The notes under the pieces: generated by a model | The model's input: the letters and a program-made list of their open reading frames with translations, nothing else | The model's database searches: none | Told to the model about the DNA's origin: nothing | IMG/VR virus record: IMGVR_UViG_2563366840_000011 | Location: 1-64,000 of that record | Origin: a virus | Taxonomy: Duplodnaviria; Heunggongvirae; Uroviricota; Caudoviricetes | Length of the DNA stretch: 64,000 nucleotides | Reading direction: 5' to 3' (one strand) | Translations under genes and position numbers: made by a program | Shown: positions 10,923 through 61,836 of the stretch, one piece after another | How the letters are laid out: each line of letters begins with the position of its first letter | Position numbering within the stretch: the first letter of the stretch is position 1

Positions 10923-10982
10923 TCCTCACGCTCCATAAACGACAAAACCGCCCGCAGGCGGTTTCACATAAAACATTTTGCA

Positions 10983-12295: not shown

Positions 12296-12300
12296 GGGAT

Positions 12301-39790: not shown

Positions 39791-40193
39791 CTTTCGGGCG
39801 GCCTCCTGATGTTCTGAGGGTGCAGAAATCCATCCGGTTAAGGATTAAATTTTATTTACAGAACTGAATTTAATTATTCAGATATACGTATCTGTAGCCT
39901 TACGAATCTACTCACTGGATGCCTCTTTCATAAAAATAATCCAGTGGGTTTTATCGTTTTTTCCCCTGTTCGTTGACAGATAACAGGTTTTCTGTCTGTC
40001 AGTGCCAGAATCTGGCTTACCGGTATTTGCGTTTCATTCCATTAAAAAATCAGAACGCCGTGCGGCCTCAACACCCGAAAGGCTTCTTTAAATCTCTGTC
40101 GCGAATCATCACGCCAGGCATCTTTATTCAGCCGTCCATATTTCTTTCCCATCCAGGCGTTATCACCAACACTCTCAAGGTAATGACTCCAAC

Positions 40194-40697
40194 TTATTGA
40201 TAGTGTTTTATGTTCAGATAATGCCCGATGACTTTGTCATGCAGCTCCACCGATTTTGAGAACGACAGCGACTTCCGTCCCAGCCGTGCCAGGTGCTGCC
40301 TCAGATTCAGGTTATGCCGCTCAATTCGCTGCGTATATCGCTTGCTGATTACGTGCAGCCTTCCCTTCAGGCGGGATTCATACAGCGGCCAGCCATCCGT
40401 CATCCATATCACCACGTCAAAGGGTGACAGCAGGCTCATAAGACGCCCCAGCGTCGCCATAGTGCGTTCACCGAATATGTGCGCAACAACCGTCTTCCGG
40501 AGCCTGTCATACGCGTAAAACAGCCAGCGCTGGCGCGATTTAGCCCCGACATAGCCCCACTGTTCGTCCATTTCCGCGCAGACGATGACGTCACTGCCCG
40601 GCTGTATGCGCGAGGTTACCGACTGCGGCCTGAGTTTTTTAAATGGCGGAAAATCGTGTTGAGGCCAACGCCCATAATGCGGGCGGTTGCCCGGCAT
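40194..40697 (-). CDS. insB: IS1 InsB (expressed as InsAB' by frameshift)
   Basis: 167-aa ORF matching IS1 InsB. Confidence 0.9.
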
Positions 40698-40891
40698 CCA
40701 ACGCCATTCATGGCCATATCAATGATTTTCTGGTGCGTACCGGGTTGAGAAGCGGTGTAAGTGAACTGCAGTTGCCATGTTTTACGGCAGTGAAAGCAGA
40801 GATAGCGCTGATGTCCGGCGGTGCTTTTGCCGTTACGCACCACCCCGTCAGTAGCTGAACAGGAGGGACAGCTGATAGAAACAGAAGCCAC
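40616..40891 (-). CDS. insA: IS1 InsA
   Basis: 91-aa ORF matching IS1 InsA. Confidence 0.9.
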
Positions 40892-40946
40892 TGGAGCACC
40901 TCAAAAACACCATCATACACTAAATCAGTAAGTTGGCAGCATCACC

Positions 40947-41297
40947 CCTTTTTCAGTGAAAATCTCGCCAAGCGGTGTCTGGCTGTTATTAATCGCCCAG
41001 TCAGCCCCGCTCTCTTTCGCTTTTTCCAGTCGTTCATCAATGCGATCGGCAACAATCACATTTTTAACGTTATAGACGCCTTTTAATACCTGAACGATCG
41101 TCAGGCCGATTGGACCGGCACCATAAACCAGAACGGTATCATTTTCAGTCGGTTGACCATGTCCGGTTACGTTAGCCGCAATGGTAAAAGGTTCGATCAT
41201 TACCGCATATTGATCGGCCACTGCTTCAGGAATTTTCCACGCATTTTTTGCCGGAACCACGGCATATTCACTGAAACCACCGTCAGCTGTGGGGAGG
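40947..41297 (-). pseudogene. Internal fragment of a zinc-type medium-chain dehydrogenase gene (rspB-like by position), truncated at its 3' end by IS1 and at its 5' end by the Mu-like prophage
   Basis: Translation ...DGGFSEYAVVPAKNAWKIPEAVADQYAVMIEPFTIAANV...VLVYGAGPIGL... shows the MDR substrate-domain and Rossmann GxGxxG pattern; the frame reads straight into the IS1 terminus. Confidence 0.55.
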
Positions 41298-41450
41298 TGA
41301 TCGTTTCTGCACTGTGAAGAATCTAGGGAAAAATGCCGGGAAGGCCGATGAATAGAGAGATTGCGTGGATTCTGTGATTTTGCACTGCAAAAAATAAAAT
41401 GAGAAAAAATAGCTATTTTTGCGTTTAATTCTGCACTCGAATGAAAGGCT
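41298..41450 (+). repeat. Putative Mu-like left end (attL) with three repeated transposase-binding-site-like motifs at ~41305, ~41378 and ~41429
   Basis: Three copies of ttYtgcactS...aa with Mu L1/L2/L3-like spacing, ~240 bp upstream of the repressor gene end; exact terminus (TG near 41298) is inferred. Confidence 0.4.
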
Positions 41451-41550
41451 TTAGATCCTTTTTAAAGACCGTTTAAGCATTTTTCGATGCCAAGCACTAT
41501 ACCGTATAGTAGGTTGGTATGTAAGAAGTTGGCTTCAAAATCCATTTCGC

Positions 41551-42120
41551 TTAACCGGCCTTCTTGTCGTGACTTGTTAGGCCCGCTTCGGCTGTCTGTT
41601 GATCAGCCTCAGATGACCCTTTTTTCAGTTGCTCATTCAGCCTAAGCAAACGCTCTTTGTCTTCTAAGGGGAGATTCATCAGACTCATATCAACATCCTT
41701 AACGCTAGCCACAAGACCTACCATGCTGCGAGCGCCTTCCTTAAAGCAGTACTCTAATATTTTTTTCTGATCATCTGGTTCTAGACTGTCGAAAATCATG
41801 TTCCACGCGCATTTAGCAGGGTCTGCATATCCTCTGTGCGCTTCATCAACAGCGATGATGCGATTCAAATTAGAATCAGCCTCATGCCCAAATGCCAGCC
41901 AGTCCAACGTGACATGCTCTTTCGCTGCGATGGCTTGCATGGCAATGAAGGATGGTTCTGTTCCCCTGCTAAGGTAGTTGTTCAATGTCGAGAATGATAA
42001 CCCCCAATCTTTTGCCGCAGCCCTTACACTGCGAGTGCCTACGAGAGCTTTTAGTCTCTTGATAAAGTTTTCTTTTCTCTCTTCATCAAAAGCAAATTCG
42101 TTTGCTTTACGGTATCCCAT
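41551..42120 (-). CDS. Mu-like repressor (Repc-like)
   Basis: 189-aa ORF divergent from ner at the left end, HTH-like segment; Mu gene order. Confidence 0.55.
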   Translation of the reverse strand: MGYRKANEFAFDEERKENFIKRLKALVGTRSVRAAAKDWGLSFSTLNNYLSRGTEPSFIAMQAIAAKEHVTLDWLAFGHEADSNLNRIIAVDEAHRGYADPAKCAWNMIFDSLEPDDQKKILEYCFKEGARSMVGLVASVKDVDMSLMNLPLEDKERLLRLNEQLKKGSSEADQQTAEAGLTSHDKKAG

Positions 42121-42303: not shown

Positions 42304-42531
42304 ATGGAAAGAAATGAAGTACAGCGTGACTGGCATCGCATTGATATTGTCGCCGAGCTGCACAAGCGTGGCGTCACTATGCGCGGCCTTTCCGCCAGCG
42401 CGGGACTAAAACCCGACACGCTGAAAAATGCGCTGGCACGCTCTTATCCAAAAGGAGAGCGCATTATTGCAAATGCTCTCAATTTAGAACCCGCCAGTAT
42501 CTGGCCAAGCCGTTACAACAAGGACCTGTGA
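42304..42531 (+). CDS. ner: Ner-like DNA-binding protein
   Basis: 75-aa ORF resembling Mu Ner (…RDWHR.D…L.NAL.R..PKGE.IIANAL...IWPSRY). Confidence 0.8.
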   Translation: MERNEVQRDWHRIDIVAELHKRGVTMRGLSASAGLKPDTLKNALARSYPKGERIIANALNLEPASIWPSRYNKDL

Positions 42532-42532
42532 C

Positions 42533-44590
42533 ATGTTCGTGACTGTTAACGAATTAGTTGGCGTCCCTGGATTGCCAACAACACAACAAGGACTGCGATA
42601 CAGTCTTAAAAAAAGTGCAGGCAACTCCCCTGAACTGGTTCGCAAGCGTGCTGGCAGCAAAGCATTCGAGTACCACATCGACTGCCTTCCTGAACAGGCG
42701 CGTGAAATAGTCAAAGCCCGGCATTATCGGGAGGTGTTGAAACAGTCTGATTGCTCACCCGCTCCAGCGGCACCAAAGCGGGAAGTCACCACGACCCGTG
42801 ATGAGCTGGCGTTATTACGGCAGTGCCCGGTATTGCTGGAGCGTGAAGTTTCCGACCTTACCGAACGCCAGAAACAGATCGCCGATGCGCGTGCATTATT
42901 AGCCGCAGAGGTTGAGCGCCTTCGGGATATCGGTATGTCTCGCGCATCGGCGGTTGAGTTCATCGCCAAAGAGTCACGCAAGGGTTCACTCCCGGAGAAC
43001 ATCCAGGCTGCGGCTGATATTGCCAATGCCCGTAAAGGCTCCAGCCGCCGTGGCGTGGGGGAAAGAACACTCCAGGAATGGCTGTCTGTTTACCTTTCAA
43101 CCCGCCCTGGTATCGAACGCCTTGCTTTACTGGCCCCAGGCCATCTTAAAGCGCGTAAGCCTGAACAGATTAAGTGGCTCCCTGATTTTCTTGCTCACTG
43201 GCGGAAACTCTCAGGCCCTTCCCTGGTTGATGCGTGGCGTTCATTCAAGACTGAATGGCAGGCTATCTATGCGGGACAGCCAGCGATGCTCGCAGTCTGC
43301 CCGTCTTATGATGCCGTTCGCCGTGCGATGGAAAAGTTGCCCAAACGTGAACGCGCTCGCGGCCGTATCAGCGGTTCAGCGGCTCTGGCCTTTGAGGTTT
43401 ACCAGAAACGTGACTGGTCACAGATGCCTGTAAATGGTTGCTGGATTGCGGATGGTAAATCGCTGGATATGAAAGTTGCTCATCCGGTCCATGGCCGCCC
43501 ATTCACGCCCGAACTGACGCTGGTGATTGATGGACGAACCCGCTTCCTGGTGGGCTGGAGCCTGGCGCTCTCGGAGAACGTCATCGCCGTAGCGGATGCC
43601 TATCGCTACGCCATGAAATTCCACGGGAAACCTCTTTTTGTTTATTCGGATAACGGTGGCGGCGAAACGAACAAAACGCTGGATGCTGATATCACCGGTA
43701 TTTTCACCCGCATGGGGATTGATCACCCGACCAGTATTCCTGGCCGACCTCAGTCTCGCGGGATTATCGAACGCCTGAACGCCGTAATACCGAGAGCGAT
43801 CGCCAACAAATTTGATACTTACAACGGATTCGGGGCCGACCGTGAGCATGTCCGGATGACCGGTCGCGCCATCCAGTCAGCGATTAAGGCTCAGGAGAAT
43901 GGCCGCGAGCTCACGAGCGTACAGCGTAATGCGCTGCGTAAACTGCCGTCATGGCAGATGCTGCTGGATACCATTGCCGAGGAAGTCGACAAATACAACA
44001 ACCTGCATGAGCACAGCGAGTTACCGAAGCGTAATGGTGTTCATATGACGCCAGCACAGTACCGTCGCGAGGTCCTGGCCACTGAGGGTGACGAGATTGA
44101 ATATCTGACGGATATCGAACTTCGTGAAGCCTTCATGCCGGAAATGTGCCGTACGGCCCAGAGAGGCTGGATTGACCTGATGAACAACCAGTATTTCAGC
44201 GCTGACCTGATACAGGTCGATGGTGAAGAGGTTCGTGTTGCCTATGACATTCACGACCCTGCCGCCGTCATCGTTCGCCGTATGGACGGTACTTATGTCT
44301 GCACCGCCATCTGGAACGGCAACAAGCGTGCCGCGCTGCCAACCAGCATGATGGATATCGCCGTTGAGAAACGCCGCCAACGTCGTCTGAAGCGCATTGA
44401 CGAACAGCGAGAAGAGATTGAAGCAGAGGCGCGAGGACTGCTGCCAGAAAGCGATATGTACCCTGATTTCGGCGCATTAATACCATCAGATGCCGAGCGT
44501 ATTAATGATGACCGGGAACACGTGTTCCTGTTCGAGTCAGAGCGAGAAGAGTGGCTGAAAAGTCAGGGCAATAAAAAAGCGGCCTTCTGA
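42533..44590 (+). CDS. A: Mu-type DDE transposase A
   Basis: 685-aa ORF immediately after ner; MuA-like size and position. Confidence 0.85.
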   Translation: MFVTVNELVGVPGLPTTQQGLRYSLKKSAGNSPELVRKRAGSKAFEYHIDCLPEQAREIVKARHYREVLKQSDCSPAPAAPKREVTTTRDELALLRQCPVLLEREVSDLTERQKQIADARALLAAEVERLRDIGMSRASAVEFIAKESRKGSLPENIQAAADIANARKGSSRRGVGERTLQEWLSVYLSTRPGIERLALLAPGHLKARKPEQIKWLPDFLAHWRKLSGPSLVDAWRSFKTEWQAIYAGQPAMLAVCPSYDAVRRAMEKLPKRERARGRISGSAALAFEVYQKRDWSQMPVNGCWIADGKSLDMKVAHPVHGRPFTPELTLVIDGRTRFLVGWSLALSENVIAVADAYRYAMKFHGKPLFVYSDNGGGETNKTLDADITGIFTRMGIDHPTSIPGRPQSRGIIERLNAVIPRAIANKFDTYNGFGADREHVRMTGRAIQSAIKAQENGRELTSVQRNALRKLPSWQMLLDTIAEEVDKYNNLHEHSELPKRNGVHMTPAQYRREVLATEGDEIEYLTDIELREAFMPEMCRTAQRGWIDLMNNQYFSADLIQVDGEEVRVAYDIHDPAAVIVRRMDGTYVCTAIWNGNKRAALPTSMMDIAVEKRRQRRLKRIDEQREEIEAEARGLLPESDMYPDFGALIPSDAERINDDREHVFLFESEREEWLKSQGNKKAAF

Positions 44591-45549: not shown

Positions 45550-45828
45550 ATGCTGACTTTAACATCAGATAACACGCTGGTTTCAGCGCTGTATCGTACC
45601 GAAGCTGTTGTCGTTTCCCTCCAGGCTCGTGGCGTGGAAGTGAAAGGCATCGTGGTTCGGGAAGGTCAGCCGGTCATTCGTATTCAGCGCCATGCCATGT
45701 GTGATTACCTGCTCACCAGCGGTAAAGCCAGCTACATCGAATATGGCCAGGGGAAATCGGGTAAATACCGCCAGGGCCTTTTCATCCAGGACGGCTGTCG
45801 TGTCGTCTGGTCAGAATCTATTCATTGA
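45550..45828 (+). CDS. Hypothetical Mu-like early protein
   Basis: 92-aa ORF after B. Confidence 0.35.
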   Translation: MLTLTSDNTLVSALYRTEAVVVSLQARGVEVKGIVVREGQPVIRIQRHAMCDYLLTSGKASYIEYGQGKSGKYRQGLFIQDGCRVVWSESIH

Positions 45829-45840
45829 AGGAGAAAATAA

Positions 45841-46032
45841 GTGGCAAAAGTCGTAATCAGCATAACCGATGCACCGCGCGGCATCAGTGTGGAGTGCCAG
45901 GTTTTTCCAGATGAAAAAGACAGTGAACTGACCCAGAAGGTCGCAGCCACTGTGGGGTATGGCCTGGCTGGCCATGTTAACGAAAAAATCCGTAATGCAA
46001 TCCAGAAAAAGGGGAAGTCCAATGTCCACTGA
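45841..46032 (+). CDS. Hypothetical small protein
   Basis: 63-aa ORF. Confidence 0.3.
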   Translation: MAKVVISITDAPRGISVECQVFPDEKDSELTQKVAATVGYGLAGHVNEKIRNAIQKKGKSNVH

Positions 46033-46672
46033 AAACACCATCAAACAATACACTACCACCCAGGCTCCAGAGGGATACTGGACTGATGCTCGCGGCGTTC
46101 TGACGCCAGTCAGTCTGATTAAAGAAATCGACCGCGATCGCGACCAGCTCGTTGGCGAACTTGTTGAGCAGGCGATTGTCGTTTCCTCTGCTCTGAGTGA
46201 GCTGAAATCACGCGCCTTTGCTGATATTCAGGCGTTTATCGACCTTTCGGCTGAAAAATACGGGGCCACCAAAGGCGGTAAAAAAGGTAATGTCACGCTC
46301 TACAGCTTTGATGGCCGTTTCAAAATCCAGCGAGCCATGCAGGACAGAATTGCCCTGGACGAGCGTATACAGACTGCAAAGGCGCTTATTGATACCTGTC
46401 TTGCTGACTGGACAGAAGGTGCCCGCCCGGAGCTGAAGGCGCTGGTCAATGAGGCGTTTGATACTGACAAAGAAGGCAATATCAATACCGGGCGCGTTCT
46501 GGCACTTCGTCGCCTGGAAATTGATGATGAACGCTGGCAGCAAGCCATGCAGGCAATCGGTGAAGCGGTGCAGGTCGTCGGTAGCCGTTCTTATATCCGC
46601 GTGTATGAACGTGTTGGTGACTCGGATGAATATCGTCCGATTGCTCTCGATATTGCCGGTGCGGGGGTGTGA
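46022..46672 (+). CDS. Hypothetical Mu-like early protein (DUF3164-like guess)
   Basis: 216 aa from ATG at 46022. Confidence 0.45.
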   Translation: MSTENTIKQYTTTQAPEGYWTDARGVLTPVSLIKEIDRDRDQLVGELVEQAIVVSSALSELKSRAFADIQAFIDLSAEKYGATKGGKKGNVTLYSFDGRFKIQRAMQDRIALDERIQTAKALIDTCLADWTEGARPELKALVNEAFDTDKEGNINTGRVLALRRLEIDDERWQQAMQAIGEAVQVVGSRSYIRVYERVGDSDEYRPIALDIAGAGV

Positions 46673-46673
46673 T

Positions 46674-46907
46674 ATGTATGTTCTGGTAGATCGCACCCAT
46701 GCCCGTAAACCATGCAGTCCATTTATGTCTTATGCAGTCAGCGCTGTACTTGCTGAGCAAGTTGGCGATTTTCATAACGCTGCAACAGCCTGGAAAACTG
46801 CATTCAGCCTGGCGAAAACAGAGGTCAATTCTATCTGGGCAATATCGCGAATGGAGTTCTGTCTTCATGCGGCGAATCGTGGTTGGGGGATTCCGAATGA
46901 AAGCTAA
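46674..46907 (+). CDS. Hypothetical protein (77 aa)
   Basis: ATG 2 nt after the previous stop. Confidence 0.35.
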   Translation: MYVLVDRTHARKPCSPFMSYAVSAVLAEQVGDFHNAATAWKTAFSLAKTEVNSIWAISRMEFCLHAANRGWGIPNES

Positions 46908-47088
46908 AGAGTTCAATCTGCGATACCCGGTTGGCAGCGTCTTTATTTATCAGCCAAATCCGGTTTTACGTGGCGGTAAGGTCGTCAGCACCGTTGACCA
47001 GGCTCGTGACTGCCGCGATGTATCGGTAGTTGAAATAAATCAAGAACCTTATTTCGCCAATATTAAATCGCTGATACCAGCTAGCTGA
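46897..47088 (+). CDS. Hypothetical protein (63 aa)
   Basis: ATG overlapping the previous gene end. Confidence 0.3.
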   Translation: MKAKEFNLRYPVGSVFIYQPNPVLRGGKVVSTVDQARDCRDVSVVEINQEPYFANIKSLIPAS

Positions 47089-47168
47089 AATAACTTTTAA
47101 TTAAACCTGTTTTAAATATGGCGTAAACCCGCCGGGGCTGGCTTACGCCTGAATTAAGGAGTTCTGTA

Positions 47169-47891
47169 ATGGAAAATAAAGAGAAATATCTCCAGCGTAT
47201 TAAAAAACTGCTGGCAATGGCGCGTAATAACTCCAGCGCTGAAGAAGCAGCACTCGCGCTGAGCCGCGCCCAGCGCCTGATGGAAACCCACAAACTGACT
47301 GAAGCCGATGCGGCGATGATGGATATCAACGAGGCATCCACTCAGAAAGCCCCATCACATGCTGAAAAGATGCCTGAATATATGGCGCTACTGGCTCATA
47401 TGATAGCGCTGGCATTCGGGGTTAAGTTCTATACCACCCACGGTCATGAGCGCTGGGATGCTCCAGCAAAACGCACCATCACCTATTACGGACCGGACGA
47501 ACGTCCGCAGGTTGCAGCTTATTCCTTCGAGGTTCTTGGCAAGCAGCTGGCGAAGGCCCGTCGTGAATACACCGCCACGTTGCGTAAAAATATCAAACCC
47601 GCCACCAAGGTGGCTCGTGCCGATACGTTCTGCTCTGCCTGGGTGAATGGTGCCTATGCCGTTATCAGTGACTTTGCCGTCACTGAGGCCGAAGAGACTC
47701 TCATGGAGAGCTATCGCAGCAAAAAACTGAGTCAGGGCATGAAGAAACTGGAGCCTCGTAAACCGGGAAAAGCCAGCGGCACCGATGATGCAGCTAATCA
47801 GGGTTATCGGGCTGGCCGCAATGCGCAGTTACATCATGCTGTGACGGGGTCTTCAAATGCTGTAGCTCGAATTGAAGGGGGACCTCAATGA
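47169..47891 (+). CDS. Hypothetical protein (DUF2786-like N-terminus guess)
   Basis: 240-aa ORF with AAGGAG SD. Confidence 0.4.
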   Translation: MENKEKYLQRIKKLLAMARNNSSAEEAALALSRAQRLMETHKLTEADAAMMDINEASTQKAPSHAEKMPEYMALLAHMIALAFGVKFYTTHGHERWDAPAKRTITYYGPDERPQVAAYSFEVLGKQLAKARREYTATLRKNIKPATKVARADTFCSAWVNGAYAVISDFAVTEAEETLMESYRSKKLSQGMKKLEPRKPGKASGTDDAANQGYRAGRNAQLHHAVTGSSNAVARIEGGPQ

Positions 47892-48391
47892 GAGATATCA
47901 CCGCACTGGCGCAACACCTAAGAGTGTATGCCGAAGAATTCAGTTATCCGGTTCTATCTCCTGATGATTGCAAAACGCTGGTAGATGCGCTGGAAGCAGG
48001 ACAACCACACCACAACGGCCTGATGCAGCTCTCTAATGAACTGGTGATGGCTAAGCAGAGAATCGCAGAACTGGAGTCCGGCACAGCCACCGCGTCGCAG
48101 AGCGATTACTTTGCCTCTCTGGTAGCAATGGCTCGTGTTTCAGCAGAAAAAGCGATGCGGAAGTTCCCTCAGCCGAACTACGTGCTTCTTAAGGTTGCGG
48201 AGGAAGCTGGCGAGGTCGTGCAGGCCGGGGTCCATTACGCAGAGAAACGGATGGAGTGGCAGCAGGTAGAGGGCGAGATTGTCCAGCTGTTGGCAATGCT
48301 GATTCGCCTGGTGACGGAGGGCGACCAGATTAATGGCATCACTCCTCCGGCCGATGGCATCCAGGTTATCGAAGGGGATAATTATGACTGA
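47888..48391 (+). CDS. Protein with C-terminal MazG-like nucleotide pyrophosphohydrolase domain
   Basis: 167-aa ORF; EExGE-type motif (AEEAGEV) in an all-alpha C-terminal region. Confidence 0.5.
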   Translation: MRDITALAQHLRVYAEEFSYPVLSPDDCKTLVDALEAGQPHHNGLMQLSNELVMAKQRIAELESGTATASQSDYFASLVAMARVSAEKAMRKFPQPNYVLLKVAEEAGEVVQAGVHYAEKRMEWQQVEGEIVQLLAMLIRLVTEGDQINGITPPADGIQVIEGDNYD

Positions 48392-48749
48392 ACAACAGCG
48401 CAAGCCGGTGGTATTCATCGCCGGGCCGATGACCGGGTATCAGGATTATAACCGGGCAGAGTTCGACGCTGAGGCTAGTGTCCTGTCCGATCGAGGCTTC
48501 ACCGTACTAAATCCGGCGATACTTCCAGATGGCCTTGAGCACCAGCAATATCTGGCAATTACGCTGGCGATGCTGGAGCAGGCTGATGCGGTATTCCTGC
48601 TGAACGGGTGGGAAAAGAGTACCGGCGCTACCAGGGAGTTTGATCGTGCCTGTGAACTAGGGCTGCTGTTCCTTTACCAGGACTGGGAAAGCGTGTCTGT
48701 TGCGATCCACCGTAAGCGTCACCCATTAACGGAGGTGAGTTATGCATAG
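48384..48749 (+). CDS. DUF4406 / nucleoside 2-deoxyribosyltransferase-like protein
   Basis: 121 aa; N-terminal VVFIAGPMTG and AVFLLNGWEKSTGATRE pattern; overlaps the MazG-like gene end. Confidence 0.5.
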   Translation: MTEQQRKPVVFIAGPMTGYQDYNRAEFDAEASVLSDRGFTVLNPAILPDGLEHQQYLAITLAMLEQADAVFLLNGWEKSTGATREFDRACELGLLFLYQDWESVSVAIHRKRHPLTEVSYA

Positions 48750-48957
48750 CGTAACGGGTTGCCAGTTTCAGGACAACGGAAACCGCCGAATCTGGTTCTT
48801 CCGCGATAACAGCCAGGTTGTCGAGTTGTTGGCGGTGCCACTTAAGCTGCGGTTCAACTATTACGACGCGAACAACCGTACAGTTCGCAATAAGGGTACT
48901 CAGGCTGATATGAAAAAGGCGATTGAATCTTTCAAGAAACTTCGGGGGATAAAGTGA
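48742..48957 (+). CDS. Hypothetical protein (71 aa)
   Basis: ORF overlapping the previous stop. Confidence 0.3.
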   Translation: MHSVTGCQFQDNGNRRIWFFRDNSQVVELLAVPLKLRFNYYDANNRTVRNKGTQADMKKAIESFKKLRGIK

Positions 48958-49175
48958 TGGATATAGCTTTAGTCCTAATATTTCTGGCGATGTATTTAAC
49001 ACTTGGCTGGTGTTGGGTATGCATCCTTGTCCGATTAGTGGGATTAGCTAATTTATCCCGACAGAATTGCTGGTTTGCCTTTCTCTTATGGCCTTTGAGC
49101 ATTATCGCGACCGATGCGAATCTGGAGGAAAACGATGGGACATCTCCTGAGAAATCTGACAGCAAAGACCTTTAA
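48954..49175 (+). CDS. Hypothetical small membrane protein
   Basis: 73-aa ORF with two hydrophobic segments. Confidence 0.3.
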   Translation: MMDIALVLIFLAMYLTLGWCWVCILVRLVGLANLSRQNCWFAFLLWPLSIIATDANLEENDGTSPEKSDSKDL

Positions 49176-49411
49176 CCAGCGCTTCCCCGTTGACTCACAG
49201 TTCCATTATTACCTGATACCTGGTGTATCGGAGCGGGAAACTGTAATAACCCGCCCGGCAGCCTGGCATATGCGCAATGGTCGTCTGGTTGTCAGGGTCG
49301 AAGGGAAAATCGGTGGTATATCAGTCAGCAAAATGAAACCTTGAAAGTAAGTCATTACAGCAGGCACTTCATAAAGTGCCTGCGATAATGACAACCAACA
49401 GGAGAAATATT

Positions 49412-49888
49412 ATGTCCACGCCAGCAAAACGAGGCCTTATAGGGGCAATTAAAGCCGGTCAGGCATATCTGGGGTGGGATGAGGTAACCTACCGTAGTGT
49501 TCTGTCTCGCTTATGCAACGGTAAAACATCATCCACTAAATGCACCCTCGACGAGCTGCAGGCTGTCAGGGAATATATGCATGACAAGGGTTTTCCTCGC
49601 TACTCAGCAAAACACGGTCGACGCCCAAAGGTTGCCAATACGCGCGAGTCAATTCTTTCTAAAATTAACGCATTACTTGCAGATGCAAAACGTCCGTGGA
49701 ATTATGCCGAGAAAATGTGCGATCATATGTTTCACGTCAAATACATCGAGTGGTTGACGACTGAACAGTTAACCAAACTCATGCAGGCTCTCAGCATTGA
49801 TGCGAGTCGGCGAAAAAAGCGGGAGCGTAATAATGAATCTGGAACAGGTAACGGAGCTGCTGCCATCAGCAGTGATTCAAATAGCTGA
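49412..49888 (+). CDS. gemA: GemA-like regulatory protein (Mu gp16 family)
   Basis: 158 aa from ATG with AGGAG SD; position immediately before mor. Confidence 0.5.
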   Translation: MSTPAKRGLIGAIKAGQAYLGWDEVTYRSVLSRLCNGKTSSTKCTLDELQAVREYMHDKGFPRYSAKHGRRPKVANTRESILSKINALLADAKRPWNYAEKMCDHMFHVKYIEWLTTEQLTKLMQALSIDASRRKKRERNNESGTGNGAAAISSDSNS

Positions 49889-50267
49889 CCTGATAGGCTT
49901 CCCGGCGACCGAGCAGCTTCTTTCTGCTTTTGGTGGCACCACGTTCCCGATAGGTAAAGGCCTCCGCGCTATGGGGGCCAGCCGCGCAGCCCTCCTGCGC
50001 AATACTATCGGCGATGATAAAACCCAATTACTCATCAAGAATTTCGGCGGAGAAGTTCTCTATTTACCCCGCTGTGATCGTGCCCTTCGTGAATTACGCA
50101 ACCGCCGCTTTCTCGCCGAGTTCGCCGAAGTGCGTGAACAAGGTTCATCCTCTCTTATGGCCATGACCTTTCTTTGCCCTAAGTATGGATTTAGTGATCG
50201 CTTTGCGTGGGAACTTCTTGCACAGCAGAAAAACAAAGGTTGTAACAGTCAAGGAAAATTATTCTAA
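49833..50267 (+). CDS. mor: Mor/C-family middle/late transcription activator
   Basis: 144 aa; overlaps the gemA end as mor does in Mu; C-terminal HTH region. Confidence 0.6.
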   Translation: MNLEQVTELLPSAVIQIADLIGFPATEQLLSAFGGTTFPIGKGLRAMGASRAALLRNTIGDDKTQLLIKNFGGEVLYLPRCDRALRELRNRRFLAEFAEVREQGSSSLMAMTFLCPKYGFSDRFAWELLAQQKNKGCNSQGKLF

Positions 50268-50773
50268 TGCGCAATACAATGAGATATATGGCATTTTTCT
50301 TGGTGGTATTTAGTACTACTGTAGTGGCAAAAACAGTACCCAATACAAAAGCAGTTGAAACTTATAAAAATCAACTTGAGGAAACTAAGAGAATATTTAA
50401 TGAAACGCAGAGCACTTTAATGGGTGCAACTGCTGTTTTTGATATGTACAAGAGTCTGGGATATCTTACACCTGAAGTTGTTGCAGTGAGTCGTCATTTC
50501 CTCCTCCTTGATGAGGATGCGAAAAAATTGTATGGGGAGAATCTTCTTTTAAACCCTACACCTTTTAGCTCTTGTGCTACGTTACCAGCAGCAGCTTACT
50601 CATATTGGATGGCAAGGCTATCTTCATTAAAAACTGATAATGTTAAGGCTGTGAATGCGCAGGGTGAATCATACATAAAACAGGGTAAGGAATGTAAATT
50701 TGCAATTAACAACCCACCTCCCTCGCATATTGAAGAAAGTGATTATGTAGAGATAATTGATGTTACTCAATAA
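50267..50773 (+). CDS. AT-rich ORF encoding a 168-aa predicted secreted protein (N-terminal signal peptide), unknown function
   Basis: Start overlaps mor stop (TAATG) with AAGGAAAA SD; hydrophobic N-terminus MRYMAFFLVVFSTTVVA; visibly lower GC than neighbours. Confidence 0.5.
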   Translation: MRNTMRYMAFFLVVFSTTVVAKTVPNTKAVETYKNQLEETKRIFNETQSTLMGATAVFDMYKSLGYLTPEVVAVSRHFLLLDEDAKKLYGENLLLNPTPFSSCATLPAAAYSYWMARLSSLKTDNVKAVNAQGESYIKQGKECKFAINNPPPSHIEESDYVEIIDVTQ

Positions 50774-50851
50774 ACCACTGAACCCCTTCACCTGATTATT
50801 CACCTAACCTGATGAAATACTGACGCCATCCCTTTTTAACCGGATGGCGTT

Positions 50852-51496
50852 ATGCTTTTAACACTCCCACAATTTCAGCGAGCCGCAGGCCTTTCGCCAG
50901 TAATGGCGCAACGCTGGTTTGAACCATTCAGTAAAGCCACCGCTGAATTCGAAATTAATACACCCGCCCGACTTGCCGCCTTTATTGCTCAAACCGGCCA
51001 TGAGAGCGCGGGTTTCAGTCGGCTCAGTGAAAATCTCTATTACTCAGATGCTGAGCGCGTGGCGCGTATTTTCCGCAGCGACTTCGATCTCAATAAGAAT
51101 CGTATTATCGATCCGAGCGAGGTTGAATTTGCCCGCCGCTATACCCGTAACCCTGAAAAAATGGCCAATTATGTTTACGCAAATCAGGGGGGTAACGGTA
51201 ATGAAGCATCAGGCGATGGCTGGCGCTTTCGCGGACGTGGCCTGATTCAGATTACCCTGCGCAATAATTACCGCCTTTGCGGTAAGGCGCTGGGCCTCGA
51301 TCTCATCGCGGATCCCGATTTGTTACTGGAGTATCTCAACGCAGCCCGCAGCGCTGCCTGGTACTGGAAGGCAAATGGCTGCAACGAGCTGGCTGACAAA
51401 GGCAATTTTCTGGCCGTAACCCGGCGTATCAACCCTCCGGCTGAAGGTCAGGCTGACCGCGTGGCGCGGCTGAATGTCGCTAAGGCGGCGCTATGA
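50852..51496 (+). CDS. Endolysin, glycoside hydrolase family 19 (chitinase-like lysozyme)
   Basis: 214-aa ORF with GH19-type motifs (AAFIAQTGHESAGF, RGRGLIQITLRNNY). Confidence 0.75.
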   Translation: MLLTLPQFQRAAGLSPVMAQRWFEPFSKATAEFEINTPARLAAFIAQTGHESAGFSRLSENLYYSDAERVARIFRSDFDLNKNRIIDPSEVEFARRYTRNPEKMANYVYANQGGNGNEASGDGWRFRGRGLIQITLRNNYRLCGKALGLDLIADPDLLLEYLNAARSAAWYWKANGCNELADKGNFLAVTRRINPPAEGQADRVARLNVAKAAL

Positions 51497-51756
51497 AAAT
51501 ATCTCTGCGCGATCTGGTGACGAACCCGGCCACCGGTCGTCTCTCTACGTCAGACACCATCGTTTTTCTGGCCTTCCTGGTCAGTTCCTTCGTACTGGTC
51601 TGGCTCACCGTTACCCGCCCCGAAACTCCTGGTGAGCTGTATCTCACCTATCTGGGCGCGTGGGTGGCTCAGAGTCAGGCATCAAAACATATGTCCATCA
51701 AACGAGCCAGAGAGGTGCGCGATGTGGGAAGCAGCCCAGAAAATCCTGAGGGTTAG
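51493..51756 (+). CDS. Small membrane protein, candidate holin/antiholin
   Basis: 87-aa ORF with one strong TM directly after the endolysin. Confidence 0.35.
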   Translation: MKISLRDLVTNPATGRLSTSDTIVFLAFLVSSFVLVWLTVTRPETPGELYLTYLGAWVAQSQASKHMSIKRAREVRDVGSSPENPEG

Positions 51757-52354
51757 CTGGAAACCGCTGCTCGTCGTCGTGGTTCTGACAGGCAGCGGGA
51801 TATGGTTCGGCACCTTCCTCACAGGCAACAAGCTGGACGCTCAGGCGCTGGCCTTCAGCCAGGAGAAGCAACGCCTGACTGATGGTTTCAGTGAAAAAGA
51901 ACGGCAGTGGGATCAGGAGAGGCTCGGCGCTGCAAATCAGTATGCAGCTAACCTGAAGGCTGCACTTGATAAGCAGAACGCCTGGCAGCAGAAAGCGGAT
52001 GCGCTGACCCGCGAGCTGGCTGAAAAGCAAAAGGCACATGACGAGACTGTTCGCGATCTTAAAAAGAGGCTTAAAGATGCACTTGATAAAGATGGTCCTG
52101 GTTATACCGGCATTGGCCCTGGCGGCCTGCAGCTCTTCCGTGAAGCCTTTGGCTACTCAGGATCCGAAAGCCTCCCCGCTGGTCAGCATCTGCCAGCCAC
52201 CGCCAGCGGCGCTCCTGGTCATACCGGCCAGACCACAGGCACCGGTGGCGGACTCTCCCCCACTGGAATAGTGTCGTTTTCAGCGGAATACGGCGCATGG
52301 TGCCAGCTCATTGAGGGCAGGCTGCAGGCAATAAATGAGTATTACAGGAAGTGA
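51722..52354 (+). CDS. i-spanin (Rz-like)
   Basis: N-terminal TM then coiled-coil-rich periplasmic domain; hosts an embedded lipoprotein ORF. Confidence 0.55.
   Translation: MWEAAQKILRVSWKPLLVVVVLTGSGIWFGTFLTGNKLDAQALAFSQEKQRLTDGFSEKERQWDQERLGAANQYAANLKAALDKQNAWQQKADALTRELAEKQKAHDETVRDLKKRLKDALDKDGPGYTGIGPGGLQLFREAFGYSGSESLPAGQHLPATASGAPGHTGQTTGTGGGLSPTGIVSFSAEYGAWCQLIEGRLQAINEYYRK
52077..52271 (+). CDS. o-spanin (Rz1-like lipoprotein) embedded in the i-spanin gene
   Basis: Nested ORF with lipobox LAAC and Pro-rich mature sequence; start among nearby Met codons uncertain. Confidence 0.5.
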   Translation: MHLIKMVLVIPALALAACSSSVKPLATQDPKASPLVSICQPPPAALLVIPARPQAPVADSPPLE

Positions 52355-52605
52355 ACAACATCATGACTCTTGATATGGCCTTTCAGATTGCGCTGGCGCT
52401 GGCTGCAACCTTCGGCACCATCTGGATACGCCGTCTGCAAAAAGACATTACCGACCTGGAAAAGGCGGTTGATCGCATCCGGGATGAATACCAGCGCCGT
52501 GAGGATGCGAAAAGTAACTACACCGCAATGATGGATGCGATGAGGGAGCTGCGAGCGGCTATCGAGCGCATTGATAACAAACTGGACAGGAAACAGGACA
52601 AATGA
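52351..52605 (+). CDS. Hypothetical membrane/coiled-coil protein
   Basis: 84-aa ORF. Confidence 0.35.
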   Translation: MNNIMTLDMAFQIALALAATFGTIWIRRLQKDITDLEKAVDRIRDEYQRREDAKSNYTAMMDAMRELRAAIERIDNKLDRKQDK

Positions 52606-52886
52606 AAGCCAGACATAAGCGCAGAACCCGCCGCGCGACAATCAGCCAGAGCGAGCAGGAAACGCTGAGCCGGATTTCCGCTCAGCTCGAACGCCTGCAG
52701 CCCCCCGTCAGCCCGGACATTCTGGGCGGGATTAATGACAAGCTGAGCCGAATTGATGTTCGCCTCACGACCATCAGCGACGATGCGGCTAGCCGTGGTG
52801 CGTCTGCCGGTGCGATTACGGGTGGAATTGCAGGCGGTGTCATCACTGTGGCGATTCTGCTCATTCGCGCAAAACTGGAGCTGTGA
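52602..52886 (+). CDS. Hypothetical protein with C-terminal TM
   Basis: 94-aa ORF. Confidence 0.35.
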   Translation: MKARHKRRTRRATISQSEQETLSRISAQLERLQPPVSPDILGGINDKLSRIDVRLTTISDDAASRGASAGAITGGIAGGVITVAILLIRAKLEL

Positions 52887-52887
52887 T

Positions 52888-53388
52888 ATGGCGCATCCGC
52901 AGGAAACACGGGAAAAACTGCGACGATCTTATATCTTCGGCCAGATGTCGCTCGAAATCGCCTCCGCTCAGGCTGGCGTGGCATTTGCGACAGCTCGCCG
53001 CTGGAAGAAGGAAGCACAGGACGCAGGCGATGACTGGGACAAGTTACGCGCCGCTCACCTTATGGCCGGGAATGGTCTTGAGGAGATTGGCCGCGCCATT
53101 CTCACCGGGTTAATGACCCAGTATCAGACCACGCTGGAACTGCTGACAACCGAGTCTCAGCTCCCTCCGGGGGAACGCGTCGAGCTTCTGGCAAGCCTTG
53201 CCGATGCATTTAACAAAGCCGTCGCAGCAAACAAGAAAATACTGCCGGAGGTGAGTCAGCTGGCGGTGGCGCTGGATGTTATCCAGAAGCTCAGCGCATT
53301 TGTCGCCGAGCACTATCCGAAGCATCTGGCAGCGTTCGTGGAAATCCTTGAACCCTTCGGCAAGGAGATGGAGCAACACTATGGCTGA
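52888..53388 (+). CDS. Putative terminase small subunit / DNA-binding packaging protein (Mu gp27-like)
   Basis: 166 aa from ATG at 52888, immediately upstream of the large terminase gene. Confidence 0.4.
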   Translation: MAHPQETREKLRRSYIFGQMSLEIASAQAGVAFATARRWKKEAQDAGDDWDKLRAAHLMAGNGLEEIGRAILTGLMTQYQTTLELLTTESQLPPGERVELLASLADAFNKAVAANKKILPEVSQLAVALDVIQKLSAFVAEHYPKHLAAFVEILEPFGKEMEQHYG

Positions 53389-53587
53389 CCAGTTAATCCG
53401 GGTTAACAGTGAAAACTATGTGATGGCCAGTGACGTGCTGGGTGTCCGGTTCGCGGGCGGCAGAAACGTAACCGTCGCGACGTCGACAGGCTGCTACAGC
53501 CTCGATGTTGATCGAGATAAAACCGGCATCGAGTCGATGAACCGCTTCATCAGCGAGGTTAATAAAGCCCTCCGCAATCATCATTAA
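53381..53587 (+). CDS. Hypothetical protein (68 aa)
   Basis: ATG overlapping the previous stop. Confidence 0.3.
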   Translation: MADQLIRVNSENYVMASDVLGVRFAGGRNVTVATSTGCYSLDVDRDKTGIESMNRFISEVNKALRNHH

Positions 53588-53611
53588 CAGGCTGTTAAGG
53601 GCAAATTAATC

Positions 53612-55261
53612 ATGGCCAGAACTAAGTTATCCAGCAAAGATTTTCTTGCCGAACTGGCGGAACTTTCCGCCAGTCTTCGTCGCACCATTGAAGCCGAAGA
53701 TGTGGGCTTTGACCCCTCCGCAGCTGCAATTGCTGAGCGTCGCGGCCTCGTTGCTGACCCTGTAACGGGGTTTGAATACTTTGTGCAGCATTATTTTCCG
53801 CACTATGTCCGCCATGCCGCCCGCAGTGAGCTGCATAACTATCTCTATAAGCGTCTGCCTGAAATCATCCAGGCCACGGGGAGCCAGAACGATGCAATAG
53901 CGGCTCCCCGTGGTGAAGCCAAATCCACCATCGTGAGTCAGCTTTTTGTCATCTGGTGCATTGTGCTGGCGCTCAAGCATTACCCGGTCATCATTATGGA
54001 CTCCATCGACCAGGCCTATCCGATGCTGGAGGCGATAAAGGCGGAACTGCAGTTTAACCCCCGTCTGCTGATGGACTTTCCTGAAGCGACGGGCGGTGGC
54101 CGCGTCTGGCAGGCCGGGACAATTCTCACCCGCAACGACATTAAGGTGCAGGTCGCCGGTAGTGGTAAAAAGTTGCGTGGCCTGCGCCATGGCCCGTATC
54201 GTCCAGACCTGGCTGTGCTCGATGATATCGAGAACGACGAGCTGGTGCGTAACCCTGAGCAGCGTGACAAGCTCGATAACTGGCTCAAAAAAACCGTCCT
54301 GCCGCTCGGTGGTGCGGGGGCCAAGTTCGATGTGGTGTATATCGGGACAATCCTGCACTACGATTCCGTGCTTTCCCGCACCCTTAAAAATCCGCTATGG
54401 ACGCGGGCCCGGTTCAAAGCGCTCATCAGCTGGCCGCACAATATGTCGCTGTGGGATAAATGGGAAGAGATCCTGCGCAACAACGATGAAGATGGTCAGG
54501 TTCTGGCGCAGGCATATTACCGTGAGCATCAGGCTGAGATGGATGAAGGAGCTGTTGTTTCATGGGCTGCGCGTCCGCTTTATGCATTGATGCTCATCCG
54601 CGCCCGTGATGGCCACAGTACCTTTGATGCGGAATATCAGAACGATCCCGTCAGCGGCGAAGATGCGCCATTTACCGGCTGCATTAACTTCTGGGTCAAC
54701 CGCCTTAACGAGTGGCGCTTCTATGGCGCATGTGACCCCAGCCTGGGTAAACACGGTAACAGCCGCGACCCTTCCGCATTACTGGTCGGTGGCTTCAACC
54801 GCTTCACCGGCATTCTGGATGTGGTCGAAGCGCGTATCCGTAAGCGTGTGCCGGACAAAATTATCTCTGACGTTATCGAGCTGCAGCGGGAATATAACTG
54901 TCTGGTCTGGGCGGTCGAGTCCGTCCAGTTCCAGGAGTTCCTGCGCACCGAACTGGTGAAGCGCTCCGCTGCGATGGGTATCCCCGTTCCTGCCAGGGCC
55001 GTCACGCCTTCGGTTGATAAGCTCCTGCGCATTGAGTCACTGCAGCCACATATGGCCAACGGCCTGATACGGCTGCACCCTTCCCAGACCACACTTATCG
55101 ACCAGCTCCGGCATTTCCCCAAAGCTGACCATGATGACGGGCCAGATGCCCTGCATATGCTCTGGATGCTGGCCGTTTCCGGCGCTGGTAATTTTGAATT
55201 TAAAGCTGTTCCCCGTCGTGGCCATAGCGGAGACAGGTTCGGTCCTTCAGGAGGATTTTGA
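53612..55261 (+). CDS. Terminase large subunit (Mu gp28-like)
   Basis: 549-aa ORF with ATPase and nuclease regions; Mu order before portal. Confidence 0.8.
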   Translation: MARTKLSSKDFLAELAELSASLRRTIEAEDVGFDPSAAAIAERRGLVADPVTGFEYFVQHYFPHYVRHAARSELHNYLYKRLPEIIQATGSQNDAIAAPRGEAKSTIVSQLFVIWCIVLALKHYPVIIMDSIDQAYPMLEAIKAELQFNPRLLMDFPEATGGGRVWQAGTILTRNDIKVQVAGSGKKLRGLRHGPYRPDLAVLDDIENDELVRNPEQRDKLDNWLKKTVLPLGGAGAKFDVVYIGTILHYDSVLSRTLKNPLWTRARFKALISWPHNMSLWDKWEEILRNNDEDGQVLAQAYYREHQAEMDEGAVVSWAARPLYALMLIRARDGHSTFDAEYQNDPVSGEDAPFTGCINFWVNRLNEWRFYGACDPSLGKHGNSRDPSALLVGGFNRFTGILDVVEARIRKRVPDKIISDVIELQREYNCLVWAVESVQFQEFLRTELVKRSAAMGIPVPARAVTPSVDKLLRIESLQPHMANGLIRLHPSQTTLIDQLRHFPKADHDDGPDALHMLWMLAVSGAGNFEFKAVPRRGHSGDRFGPSGGF

Positions 55262-55263
55262 TA

Positions 55264-58078: not shown

Positions 58079-58617
58079 GTTACGCCATCAGGTATGACAT
58101 TGGTGACTTTGAGCGTTCACTCGGTGAACTCATTAAAAAGCTGGAAAACCGCGCCCCCCTGATGCGCGAGATGGCCGCTGCCATGGGCGATGCCGTCGAA
58201 GAAAATTTCGCGCAACAGGGTCGCCCCGCATGGATGGGCTGGAGCCCGGCATACGCCCGTCAGCGCCGGGGCGGTAAAATTCTCCAGAAGAGCGGTCGAC
58301 TGGCGGCAAGTATCACCCAGTACAGCACGAATGATGAGGCGACGGTCGGGACCAATGTGAAATACGCCCGCATCCACCAGGAAGGCGGGGAAATCAGCAT
58401 TCCGGCCCGCAGTCAGAAAGCCTGGTACCGCCAGAAAAAGGATGGTTCAGTGGGTAACCGGTTCGTTAAAAAATCCCGCTCCAACTTTGAGCAGTGGAAC
58501 ACTATCGGGGCGTATAAAATTAGGATGCCCGCGCGTCCTTTCCTGCATCTCACCGAAGATGACGTGGAGAAGATGGAGAATACGGCTGAGCAGTATCTGA
58601 AACATATTTTAGACTGA
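58075..58617 (+). CDS. Mu G-like virion morphogenesis protein
   Basis: 180-aa ORF after F. Confidence 0.55.
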   Translation: MSYAIRYDIGDFERSLGELIKKLENRAPLMREMAAAMGDAVEENFAQQGRPAWMGWSPAYARQRRGGKILQKSGRLAASITQYSTNDEATVGTNVKYARIHQEGGEISIPARSQKAWYRQKKDGSVGNRFVKKSRSNFEQWNTIGAYKIRMPARPFLHLTEDDVEKMENTAEQYLKHILD

Positions 58618-60100: not shown

Positions 60101-60111
60101 AGGAGAGCGAA

Positions 60112-60504: not shown

Positions 60505-60517
60505 TAAGGAGAGAACC

Positions 60518-61833: not shown

Positions 61834-61836
61834 GCC

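What the first reader, a model, noticed from the sequence alone, without database searches (positions are those of the whole stretch)
40947..41460. Mu-like prophage left end inserted inside the same dehydrogenase gene
The dehydrogenase-like frame (…DGGFSEYAVVPAKNAWKIPEAV…) stops resembling a dehydrogenase at ~41291-41300. Immediately beyond are three copies of a ttYtgcact motif spaced like Mu L1-L3 transposase-binding sites, followed by the repressor and ner/A/B genes. The gene is therefore truncated at both ends by two different mobile elements; the missing 5' part should lie beyond the Mu-like right end outside this window.
Basis: partly seen in the sequence, partly recalled or inferred. Interest (0 to 1): 0.55.

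Follow-up and report, generated by a model that had tools for sequence, protein, structure and literature searches.

The report
Mu-like prophage inserted in rspB
A transposable (Mu-like) prophage has jumped into the E. coli rspB dehydrogenase gene, which an IS1 element had also cut. This is an ordinary event; the one twist is that this phage group duplicates 4 bases of target, not the 5 expected for Mu.

Summary
The window comes from E. coli KTE119 (scaffold KB732923.1).

- **rspB piece:** a 341-nt internal piece of rspB lies at 40947-41287 on the minus strand. IS1 (40179-40946) bounds it on one side.
- **Phage left end:** the exact left terminus of a Mu-like prophage (41288, 5'-TGTGGGGAGG) bounds it on the other. 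Ten other genomes carry the same 173-nt end, each next to different host DNA.
- **Repeats:** TTYTGCACT occurs only three times in the 64 kb, all within 150 nt of the terminus. The right end of the family carries matching copies, with the first at the same offset (18).
- **Genes:** a repressor, Ner, a MuA-like transposase and a MuB-like ATPase follow in Mu order.
- **Missing 5' part:** the evidence places it beyond the right end. KTE119 annotates a 114-aa RspB N-terminal fragment ending ...HAV*. A metagenome contig encoding that same protein reads ...GCGCTACA|CAGC|GTGCACACC.
- **Correction:** the target duplication is 4 bp (CAGC), not 5. The same holds for three other copies of this family with both ends readable, a plasmid remnant, Sp18 of O157 Sakai and a GenBank-annotated STEC Mu-like phage.

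The element is not a close relative of Mu (transposase 23% identical). It is an ordinary prophage insertion of low interest.

The parts
40179..40946 (-). IS1 element (insA/insB on the minus strand). Its right inverted repeat ...GGCAGCATCACC ends at 40946. It removes the 3' part of rspB.
   Evidence: IS1 terminal repeat located at 40924-40946 and the left repeat at about 40179. InsA/IS1 DDE Pfam domains on the gene called in the identical locus L015. No rspB 3' remainder anywhere in the window.
40947..41287 (-). Internal fragment of rspB (Zn-dependent oxidoreductase), gene nucleotides 337-677, codons ~113-226.
   Evidence: 341 nt with 0 mismatches to rspB of E. coli HS and 14 IMG/VR E. coli loci. 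ADH_zinc_N Pfam hit. Annotated as ELF09256.1 'starvation-sensing protein RspB [E. coli KTE119]'.
41284..41287 (.). CAGC: the left copy of the 4-bp target-site duplication.
   Evidence: Left junction GTCAGC|TGTGGGG. Right junction GCGCTACA|CAGC|GTGCACACC in L327. Intact rspB reads GTCAGCGTGCAC. The exact chimeric protein ...HAV* is present in KTE119.
41288..41450 (+). Left end (attL) of the Mu-like prophage, starting 5'-TG; the first 173 nt are conserved.
   Evidence: Identical 173 nt next to ten different host flanks in L011-L020. Homology to the plasmid copy L002 starts at the same base.
41305..41313 (+). Repeat L1, TTCTGCACT, offset 18 from the terminus; putative transposase end-binding site.
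   Evidence: The right end has TTTTGCAC at the same offset 18.
41378..41386 (+). Repeat L2, TTTTGCACT, offset 91.
41429..41437 (+). Repeat L3, TTCTGCACT, offset 142.
41551..42120 (-). Phage repressor (c-like), transcribed towards the left end.
   Evidence: PHROG 3037 transcriptional repressor, E 8.8e-38; Phage_CI_repr HTH. Same position as Mu c.
42304..42531 (+). Ner-like DNA-binding protein.
   Evidence: Pfam HTH_35, E 6e-28; PHROG 769.
42533..44590 (+). MuA-like DDE transposase (685 aa).
   Evidence: Pfam Mu-transpos_C 1.5e-15, HTH_Tnp_Mu_1 7e-7, rve 1e-5 (26 bits, below Pfam's 32.6-bit cut-off). PHROG 310 transposase 2e-173. Identity: 45% to Sp18 A, 23% to MuA, 68.5% to Klebsiella phage ST405-OXA48phi1.1.
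44636..45529 (+). MuB-like AAA+ target-DNA activator.
   Evidence: Pfam AAA_22 and TniB; PHROG 296 'DNA transposition protein' 2e-94. 28% identity to MuB, E 3e-23.
45550..64000 (+). Rest of the prophage inside the window: early genes (DUF3164, GemA, Mor), lysis, terminase, Mu-type portal, F, protease/scaffold, major head and the start of the sheath. The prophage runs off the window end.
   Evidence: Pfam families of the called genes in the near-identical loci L003-L020. L005 is 99.98% identical to window 52265-64000.

Best explanation
A complete or near-complete temperate transposable phage of the Mu type integrated by DDE transposition into codon 113/114 of rspB in E. coli KTE119.

Inferred mechanism. 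The phage's A transposase would recognise repeated TTYTGCAC sites, three near each end, with the first at offset 18 from both termini. It would cleave at the terminal 5'-TG...CA-3' and join the ends to target cuts staggered by 4 bp. The B AAA+ ATPase would help select the target. Repair of the gaps would leave CAGC on both sides.

Present state. The prophage would be kept silent by the divergently transcribed repressor next to the left end. An IS1 with an adjacent deletion has separately removed the 3' third of rspB. Only a 341-nt internal gene piece therefore remains between IS1 and the phage left end. The 5' 340 nt of rspB, followed by rspA, sit beyond the phage right end about 34-35 kb away, outside the window.

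Shown: both junction sequences, the gene content, random insertion sites in other genomes, and the 4-bp repeats. Inferred: that A binds the repeats, that the cuts are 4 bp apart, and that the prophage is still active.
For: - Exact left terminus: ten unrelated host flanks abut the same TGTGGGGAGG... end. rspB identity stops at 41287.
- Gene set and order match Mu: c, ner, A, B, then Mu-type late genes.
- Source genome identified as KTE119, KB732923.1.
- Right junction, protein level: the predicted chimeric protein RspB(1-113)+V+stop exists exactly, as ELF09308.1 of KTE119, on the 4,246,345-bp scaffold. That is 52 accession numbers after the left fragment ELF09256.1.
- Right junction, DNA level: ULRG01028523.1 encodes that same protein and reads ...CGCCGCGCTACA|CAGC|GTGCACACC, followed by rspB 5' and rspA.
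- 4-bp flanking repeats in three other copies of the family with both ends readable (CTAG, CCAA, TTCT), in the plasmid remnant (AAAC), in Sp18 (TAAA), and annotated as such in LC727895.1 (AGAG).
- End repeats: L at 18, 91, 142; R at 18, 40, 73 plus an inverted copy at 82. Sp18 has a different repeat (TTTGATACC) at the same offset on both ends.
Against: - The right junction was not read from KB732923.1 itself. It rests on the KTE119 protein annotation plus a metagenome contig that encodes the identical protein.
- The right-end sequence variant in L327 resembles the plasmid copy (98.8%). The window's left end is only ~90% identical to that plasmid's left end, so the prophage is mosaic, or L327 could come from a related strain.
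- No binding, cleavage or induction data exist.
- The transposase core does not reach MuA structures by plain sequence search. The rve hit is below Pfam's cut-off.
Confidence: 0.93

Rival explanations
1. The element is a decayed remnant of a Mu-like prophage that can no longer move, not an intact prophage.
For: The right ~11-12 kb lies outside the window and was not read in the source. One related metagenome copy (L022) has a truncated invertase and lacks the right end. The plasmid copy is a remnant cut by IS26.
Against: All early and late genes in the window are full-length ORFs with the same lengths as in other copies. A copy 99.98% identical over 11.7 kb exists in another assembly. Identical left ends sit at ten different chromosomal sites, which implies recent mobility. 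51 proteins lie between the two rspB fragments in KTE119. Both termini and the 4-bp repeat are intact.
Confidence: 0.1
2. The three TTYTGCACT repeats are operators for the repressor or Ner, or chance repeats, rather than transposase end-binding sites.
For: No binding data. The repeats lie upstream of the end of the repressor gene. A count of three in 64 kb is reached by 14% of shuffles.
Against: All copies lie within 150 nt of the terminus on one strand. The right end, which has no repressor gene nearby, carries the same 8-mer three times in the mirrored orientation, with the first copy at the identical offset 18. Sp18 has its own repeat at the same offset on both ends. In Mu the operators lie between c and ner, not in the first 170 nt (annotation; established knowledge of Mu).
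Confidence: 0.07
3. The rspB disruption arose by a larger rearrangement (a Mu- or IS1-mediated inversion or deletion), so the two rspB pieces are not the two sides of one simple insertion.
For: IS1 next to the fragment has clearly caused a deletion. Transposable phages are known to promote rearrangements.
Against: The two junctions share exactly 4 bp of rspB (CAGC). Together they reconstitute the uninterrupted rspB sequence with no loss. The accession order ELF09256...ELF09308 on one scaffold fits one prophage between them.
Confidence: 0.03

Closest known systems
Bacteriophage Mu (Muvirus mu)
   Same: Same layout at the left end. The repressor is on the reverse strand, then ner, A and B, at nearly the same distances: c 264-833, ner 1017, A 1246 here; 339-929, 1099, 1328 in Mu. 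TG...CA termini. Three repeated sites within ~170 nt of the left end. Random insertion. Mu-type portal, F, I, T, sheath and baseplate genes. An invertible fibre segment with a Gin-like invertase in relatives.
   Different: No nucleotide similarity. A is 23% and B 28% identical. The end-site motif is TTYTGCAC, not Mu's TTCAYT...CGAAA. Site spacing is 73/51 against 105/40 nt. The target duplication is 4 bp, not 5. No mom gene before the right end in relatives.
Sp18, the Mu-like prophage of E. coli O157:H7 Sakai, and the Sp18-like phages of STEC CC119 (LC727895.1; PMC10132054)
   Same: Transposase 45% identical. The same conserved right terminus ...ATCGCCGCGCTA(C/T)A. A repeat at offset ~18-21 on both ends. 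A 4-bp flanking duplication (TAAA in Sakai, AGAG annotated in LC727895.1). Inserts into genes and other prophages.
   Different: A different end-site motif (TTTGATACC). The right end finishes in TA rather than CA. Longer (38.8 kb), with extra genes after the invertase, including a DNA modification gene.
Klebsiella phage ST405-OXA48phi1.1 (MK388859) and Kp4852-3
   Same: The closest deposited phage records: A is 68.5% and 64% identical, with the same gene order and late genes.
   Different: These are predicted prophage regions with imprecise ends, so their termini and duplication cannot be read. They are below the megablast threshold at DNA level.
Haemophilus phage SuMu / Mannheimia phage 3927AP2
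   Same: Transposase ~41% identical over its whole length. Mu-like myoviruses.
   Different: Pasteurellaceae hosts. Ends not examined here.

Membership tests
Mu-like transposable phages (broad sense) | DDE transposase with the Mu transposase C-terminal domain and an N-terminal Mu-type DNA-binding domain | tested here: met
   Pfam Mu-transpos_C 1.5e-15 and HTH_Tnp_Mu_1 7e-7; PHROG 310 2e-173. The N-terminal domain matches PDB 1tns. The rve core hit is below the curated cut-off.
Mu-like transposable phages (broad sense) | MuB-like AAA+ transposition ATPase immediately downstream of A | tested here: met
   PHROG 296 2e-94; 28% identity to MuB, E 3e-23.
Mu-like transposable phages (broad sense) | 5'-TG...CA-3' termini with repeated transposase sites in inverted orientation at both ends | tested here: met
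   TG at 41288. ...CTACA at the right end in L327 and six IMG/VR copies. TTYTGCAC at offset 18 on both ends, three per end. Binding itself is not testable here.
Mu-like transposable phages (broad sense) | Insertion at many unrelated sites, with no att-site specificity | tested here: met
   Ten different host flanks at an identical left end. At least eleven different flanks at the right end.
Mu-like transposable phages (broad sense) | Short target-site duplication flanking the prophage | tested here: met
   A 4-bp repeat in every copy where both flanks could be read.
Mu sensu stricto (genus Muvirus; Mu, D108, SfMu) | 5-bp target duplication | tested here: not met
   4 bp (CAGC). The proteins predicted from a 5-bp duplication are absent, and the one predicted from 4 bp is present.
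Mu sensu stricto (genus Muvirus; Mu, D108, SfMu) | Nucleotide or high protein similarity to Mu | tested here: not met
   No megablast match to any of 50,697 phage records. A is 23% identical to MuA.
Mu sensu stricto (genus Muvirus; Mu, D108, SfMu) | Mu end-site consensus (TTCAYT..RAA.RCGAAA) at L1-L3 | tested here: not met
   The window sites are TTYTGCACT. Mu's CGAAA-core sites lie at 22, 127 and 167.
rspB (starvation-sensing Zn-dependent oxidoreductase of E. coli) | Sequence identity to rspB, and its position next to rspA | tested here: met
   341 nt identical to rspB of HS. The 5' part plus rspA lie beyond the right junction in L327, 99.9% identical to HS. NCBI names both fragments RspB in KTE119.
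IS1 | 768-bp element with IS1 terminal repeats and insA/insB | tested here: met
   Terminal repeats at ~40179 and 40924-40946. InsA/IS1 DDE Pfam domains. ORFs at 40194-40697 and 40616-40891.

The most novel reading that the evidence does not exclude
The enterobacterial Mu-like phages that share the ...CGCCGCGCTA(C/T)A right terminus form a clade. It includes this widespread group, found in E. coli, Salmonella, Enterobacter, Citrobacter, Cronobacter and Klebsiella, together with Sp18-like phages. Their transposase would cut the target with a 4-bp stagger. That would be a third duplication-length class beside the 5 bp of Mu and the 6 bp of B3 that reviews treat as the rule. It has so far been recorded only in GenBank feature tables, not analysed.
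Probability: 0.35. Interest if true: 0.35.

Novelty: new member of a known kind. Interest (0 to 1): 0.15.

Why it matters
The finding matters little for biology at large. It is a routine prophage insertion that, together with IS1, destroys a non-essential gene that is often disrupted in E. coli.

It has two practical uses. First, it gives base-exact ends (TGTGGGGAGG...CGCCGCGCTACA) for a common, unnamed Mu-like prophage group of Enterobacteriaceae that is absent from the phage sequence collection. Second, it shows that prophage-boundary searches which demand a 5- or 6-bp flanking repeat will miss or misplace the ends of this group and of Sp18-like phages, because these leave 4 bp.

Tried and rejected
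- **5-bp chimeras.** I predicted the right-junction protein for a 5-bp duplication (RspB 1-114 + VARRNFSHRNA... in ten combinations of allele and right-end variant). None exists in the collection. This led me to check the duplication length in relatives.
- **Reaching the right end of KB732923.1 directly.**
  - The last complete window gene plus a 10-kb flank stops ~2.5 kb short.
  - The gp48 cluster representative is a different variant on a 1.7-kb contig.
- **IMG/VR.** It holds neither junction of this insertion (the first using the 5-bp form). All of its E. coli rspB loci where that position could be read (26 of 42 returned) are uninterrupted there.
- **First metagenome scan.** It used the TTCGCCGCG right-end variant and found nothing. 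A shorter pattern found the junction.
- **L022.** The relative closest to the window's late region lacks a right end, because its gin gene is truncated next to another island.
- **MK388859.** The closest deposited phage has imprecise boundaries and was useless for the ends.
- **A PDB sequence search** with the transposase found only the N-terminal Mu domain and weak retroviral integrase cores.
- **Literature.** Full-text searches found no paper linking Mu-like phages with a 4-bp duplication. This is absence from that library only.

Full report
**What is at the coordinates.** The window around 40.1-45.6 kb reads, from left to right:

| Window coordinates | Strand | Feature |
|---|---|---|
| 40179-40946 | - | IS1 |
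| 40947-41287 | - | 341-nt internal piece of rspB |
| 41288 onward | + | Unrelated sequence starting TGTGGGGAGGTGATCGTTT |
| 41551-42120 | - | Repressor |
| 42304-42531 | + | Ner-like gene |
| 42533-44590 | + | 685-aa transposase |
| 44636-45529 | + | AAA+ ATPase |

- The rspB piece is identical over all 341 nt to rspB of E. coli HS and of 14 other E. coli loci. It is the only rspB sequence in the window.
- Intact rspB continues GTCAGC|GTGCACACC.
- IS1 here sits at a different rspB position than the IS1 that truncates rspB in strain HS. The rspB 3' remainder is missing, so an IS1-associated deletion is involved.

**Is it a phage end?** Pfam and PHROGs identify the four genes:

- a phage repressor (PHROG 3037, 9e-38);
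- Ner (HTH_35, 6e-28);
- a Mu-type transposase (Mu-transpos_C 1.5e-15, HTH_Tnp_Mu_1 7e-7, PHROG 310 2e-173);
- a MuB-type 'DNA transposition protein' (PHROG 296, 2e-94).

Their distances from the terminus nearly copy those of Mu: c 264-833, ner 1017, A 1246 here, against 339-929, 1099, 1328 in Mu.

An exact-protein look-up of the repressor returned ten long contigs. In each, the same 173 nt, beginning TGTGGGGAGG, abut ten unrelated host sequences. That fixes the terminus to the base and shows transposition-type, site-independent insertion.

One of the ten, L015, has the same IS1, rspB fragment and 437-aa transposase as the window. It is scaffold KB732923.1 of assembly GCA_000351905.1. The 111-aa rspB fragment is ELF09256.1, which NCBI names 'starvation-sensing protein RspB [Escherichia coli KTE119]'. 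The window is therefore from E. coli KTE119, with record coordinate = window + 1,458,327.

**The repeats.** TTYTGCACT occurs only at 41305, 41378 and 41429 in the 64 kb, all on the + strand. These are offsets 18, 91 and 142 from the terminus.

- The count alone is unremarkable; the clustering is not.
- The sites are conserved in a 90%-identical left-end remnant on plasmid pMCR10_2641_2.
- Read inward, the right end carries TTYTGCAC at offsets 18, 40 and 73, plus an inverted copy at 82. The first site is thus at the same distance from both termini.
- Sp18 has a different repeat (TTTGATACC) at the same place on both ends.

This is the arrangement expected of transposase end-binding sites, three per end as in Mu. 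The motif and spacing are not Mu's, whose CGAAA-core sites lie at 22, 127 and 167. Binding itself is inferred, not shown.

**The right end and the missing 5' part of rspB.** The prophage runs off the window. Loci fetched through gp37 and gp48 show the rest of the genome:

- Mu-type portal, F, protease/scaffold, head, sheath, tape measure and baseplate genes;
- fibre genes with an inverted alternative set, and a Gin-like invertase;
- about 110 nt after the invertase, a conserved terminus ...TTCGCCGCGCTACA next to unrelated host DNA.

I could not fetch KB732923.1 that far, so I tested predictions instead.

1. Chimeric RspB proteins predicted for a 5-bp duplication were absent from the 15-billion-protein collection.
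2. Three IMG/VR contigs that hold both ends of one copy show 4-bp, not 5-bp, flanking repeats: CTAG, CCAA and TTCT. The plasmid remnant also fits 4 bp (AAAC).
3. With a 4-bp duplication, the rspB 5' fragment should read ...CAC GCT G|TG TAG, that is RspB 1-113 + Val + stop.
4. That exact 114-aa sequence is in the collection as ELF09308.1, 'starvation-sensing protein RspB [Escherichia coli KTE119]', on a 4,246,345-bp contig. It is 52 accession numbers after the left fragment, which leaves room for 51 phage genes.
5. A scan of metagenome contigs for the junction then found ULRG01028523.1 (L327). It reads ...AAAAAAATCGCCGCGCTACA|CAGC|GTGCACACCTAATAC..., continues with the rspB 5' part and rspA at 99.9% identity to HS, and encodes exactly ELF09308.1.

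Left junction GTCAGC|TG... plus right junction ...CA|CAGCGTGCAC reconstitute intact rspB, with CAGC duplicated.

**The 4-bp duplication in context.**

- Sp18 of O157:H7 Sakai has an A protein 45% identical to this one. It is flanked by TAAA on both sides, and no 5-bp reading fits.
- GenBank LC727895.1 annotates a 4-bp 'duplication due to insertion of Mu_JNE122137' (AGAG) for an Sp18-like phage. The associated paper does not discuss it (PMC10132054).
- A review-style introduction states that a 5- or 6-bp duplication is the recognised scar of transposable phages (PMC8705779).
- Full-text searches found no paper linking Mu-like phages with a 4-bp duplication.

The 4-bp length therefore looks like a property of this clade. 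It is visible in public annotation but, as far as I could search, not discussed. This is a modest point, and the search covers open-access text only.

**Relationship to known phages.**

- No phage record matches at DNA level.
- No complete RefSeq E. coli genome carries the element, apart from the plasmid remnant.
- The repressor occurs in 913 blocks of the assembly collection and gp48 on 439 contigs. The source names span E. coli, Salmonella, Enterobacter, Citrobacter, Cronobacter and Klebsiella.
- By transposase, the closest deposited phages are Klebsiella phage ST405-OXA48phi1.1 (68.5%) and Kp4852-3 (64%), then Pseudomonas VW-6B (52%), Yersinia phages and Sp18-like phages (43-46%), and SuMu and Mannheimia 3927AP2 (41%).
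- MuA is 23% and MuB 28% identical.

It is thus a Mu-like phage in organisation and mechanism, but not a member of Mu's own genus.

**Verdict.** It is wrong on two details: the duplication is 4 bp, not 5, and the end repeats do not match Mu's own sites. This is an ordinary prophage insertion in a draft genome whose annotation already lists the two RspB fragments. Interest is low. The remaining uncertainty is that the right junction was read from the KTE119 protein annotation and from a metagenome contig encoding the same protein, not from the KTE119 scaffold itself.

Noticed in passing
L002 (plasmid pMCR10_2641_2, NZ_JALDNN010000003.1) 151-162 and ~2997: A right end of this phage family (...CGCCGCGCTACA) lies 2.8 kb upstream of a left end in the same orientation. 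gstA, a hydroxyacylglutathione hydrolase gene and a partial transposase lie between them, and AAAC sits at both boundaries of the segment. This looks like host DNA captured between two phage copies (Mu-type cointegrate or segment transposition), later eroded by IS26.
   Followed up: partly
protein P0286 (JGI/IMG, 3195-bp contig), not in the window: The same 114-aa truncated RspB ending ...HAV* exists with a different rspB allele (LSIIERE instead of LAIVERE). It could be the same insertion after recombination, or an independent Mu-like insertion at the same 4 bp. An Sp18-type end (TATAG) would give the same V-stop.
   Followed up: no
L322 (Sp18, E. coli O157:H7 Sakai NC_002695.2) and L321 (LC727895.1): Sp18-like phages end in ...GCGCTATA, that is TA rather than the canonical CA at the right terminus. 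They are flanked by 4-bp repeats (TAAA, AGAG).
   Followed up: partly
proteins P0165-P0271; L001 3033-3887: rspB is disrupted very often in E. coli. There are dozens of clusters of N-terminal RspB fragments with different foreign tails, several with ~190 members. IS1 truncates rspB at another position in strain HS.
   Followed up: no
window 1-36500: A lambdoid prophage fills the left half of the window: tail fibre, tape measure, head and terminase genes on the minus strand, with antiterminator Q, RelB/ParE and Hok genes nearer rspB. It sits at the Qin/ydfJ-rspB locus, so rspB lies between two prophages.
   Followed up: no
window 37061-38374 (-): A 437-aa transposase with HTH_28/29/32 and a weak rve_3 domain: a third mobile element between the lambdoid prophage and IS1. 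Not identified to family.
   Followed up: no
L022 (IMGVR_UViG_3300030125_000016) 10880-13950: A close relative of the prophage has its gin gene truncated and no right end. It abuts an island with a tyrosine integrase next to dusA, so one element has displaced the end of another.
   Followed up: no
L021-L030 right-end regions (e.g. L028 10573-13359): The family carries a Mu-style invertible fibre segment (S/U and inverted S'/U' genes with several unrelated C-terminal variants) and a Gin-like invertase as its last gene. No mom/com genes precede the right end.
   Followed up: partly
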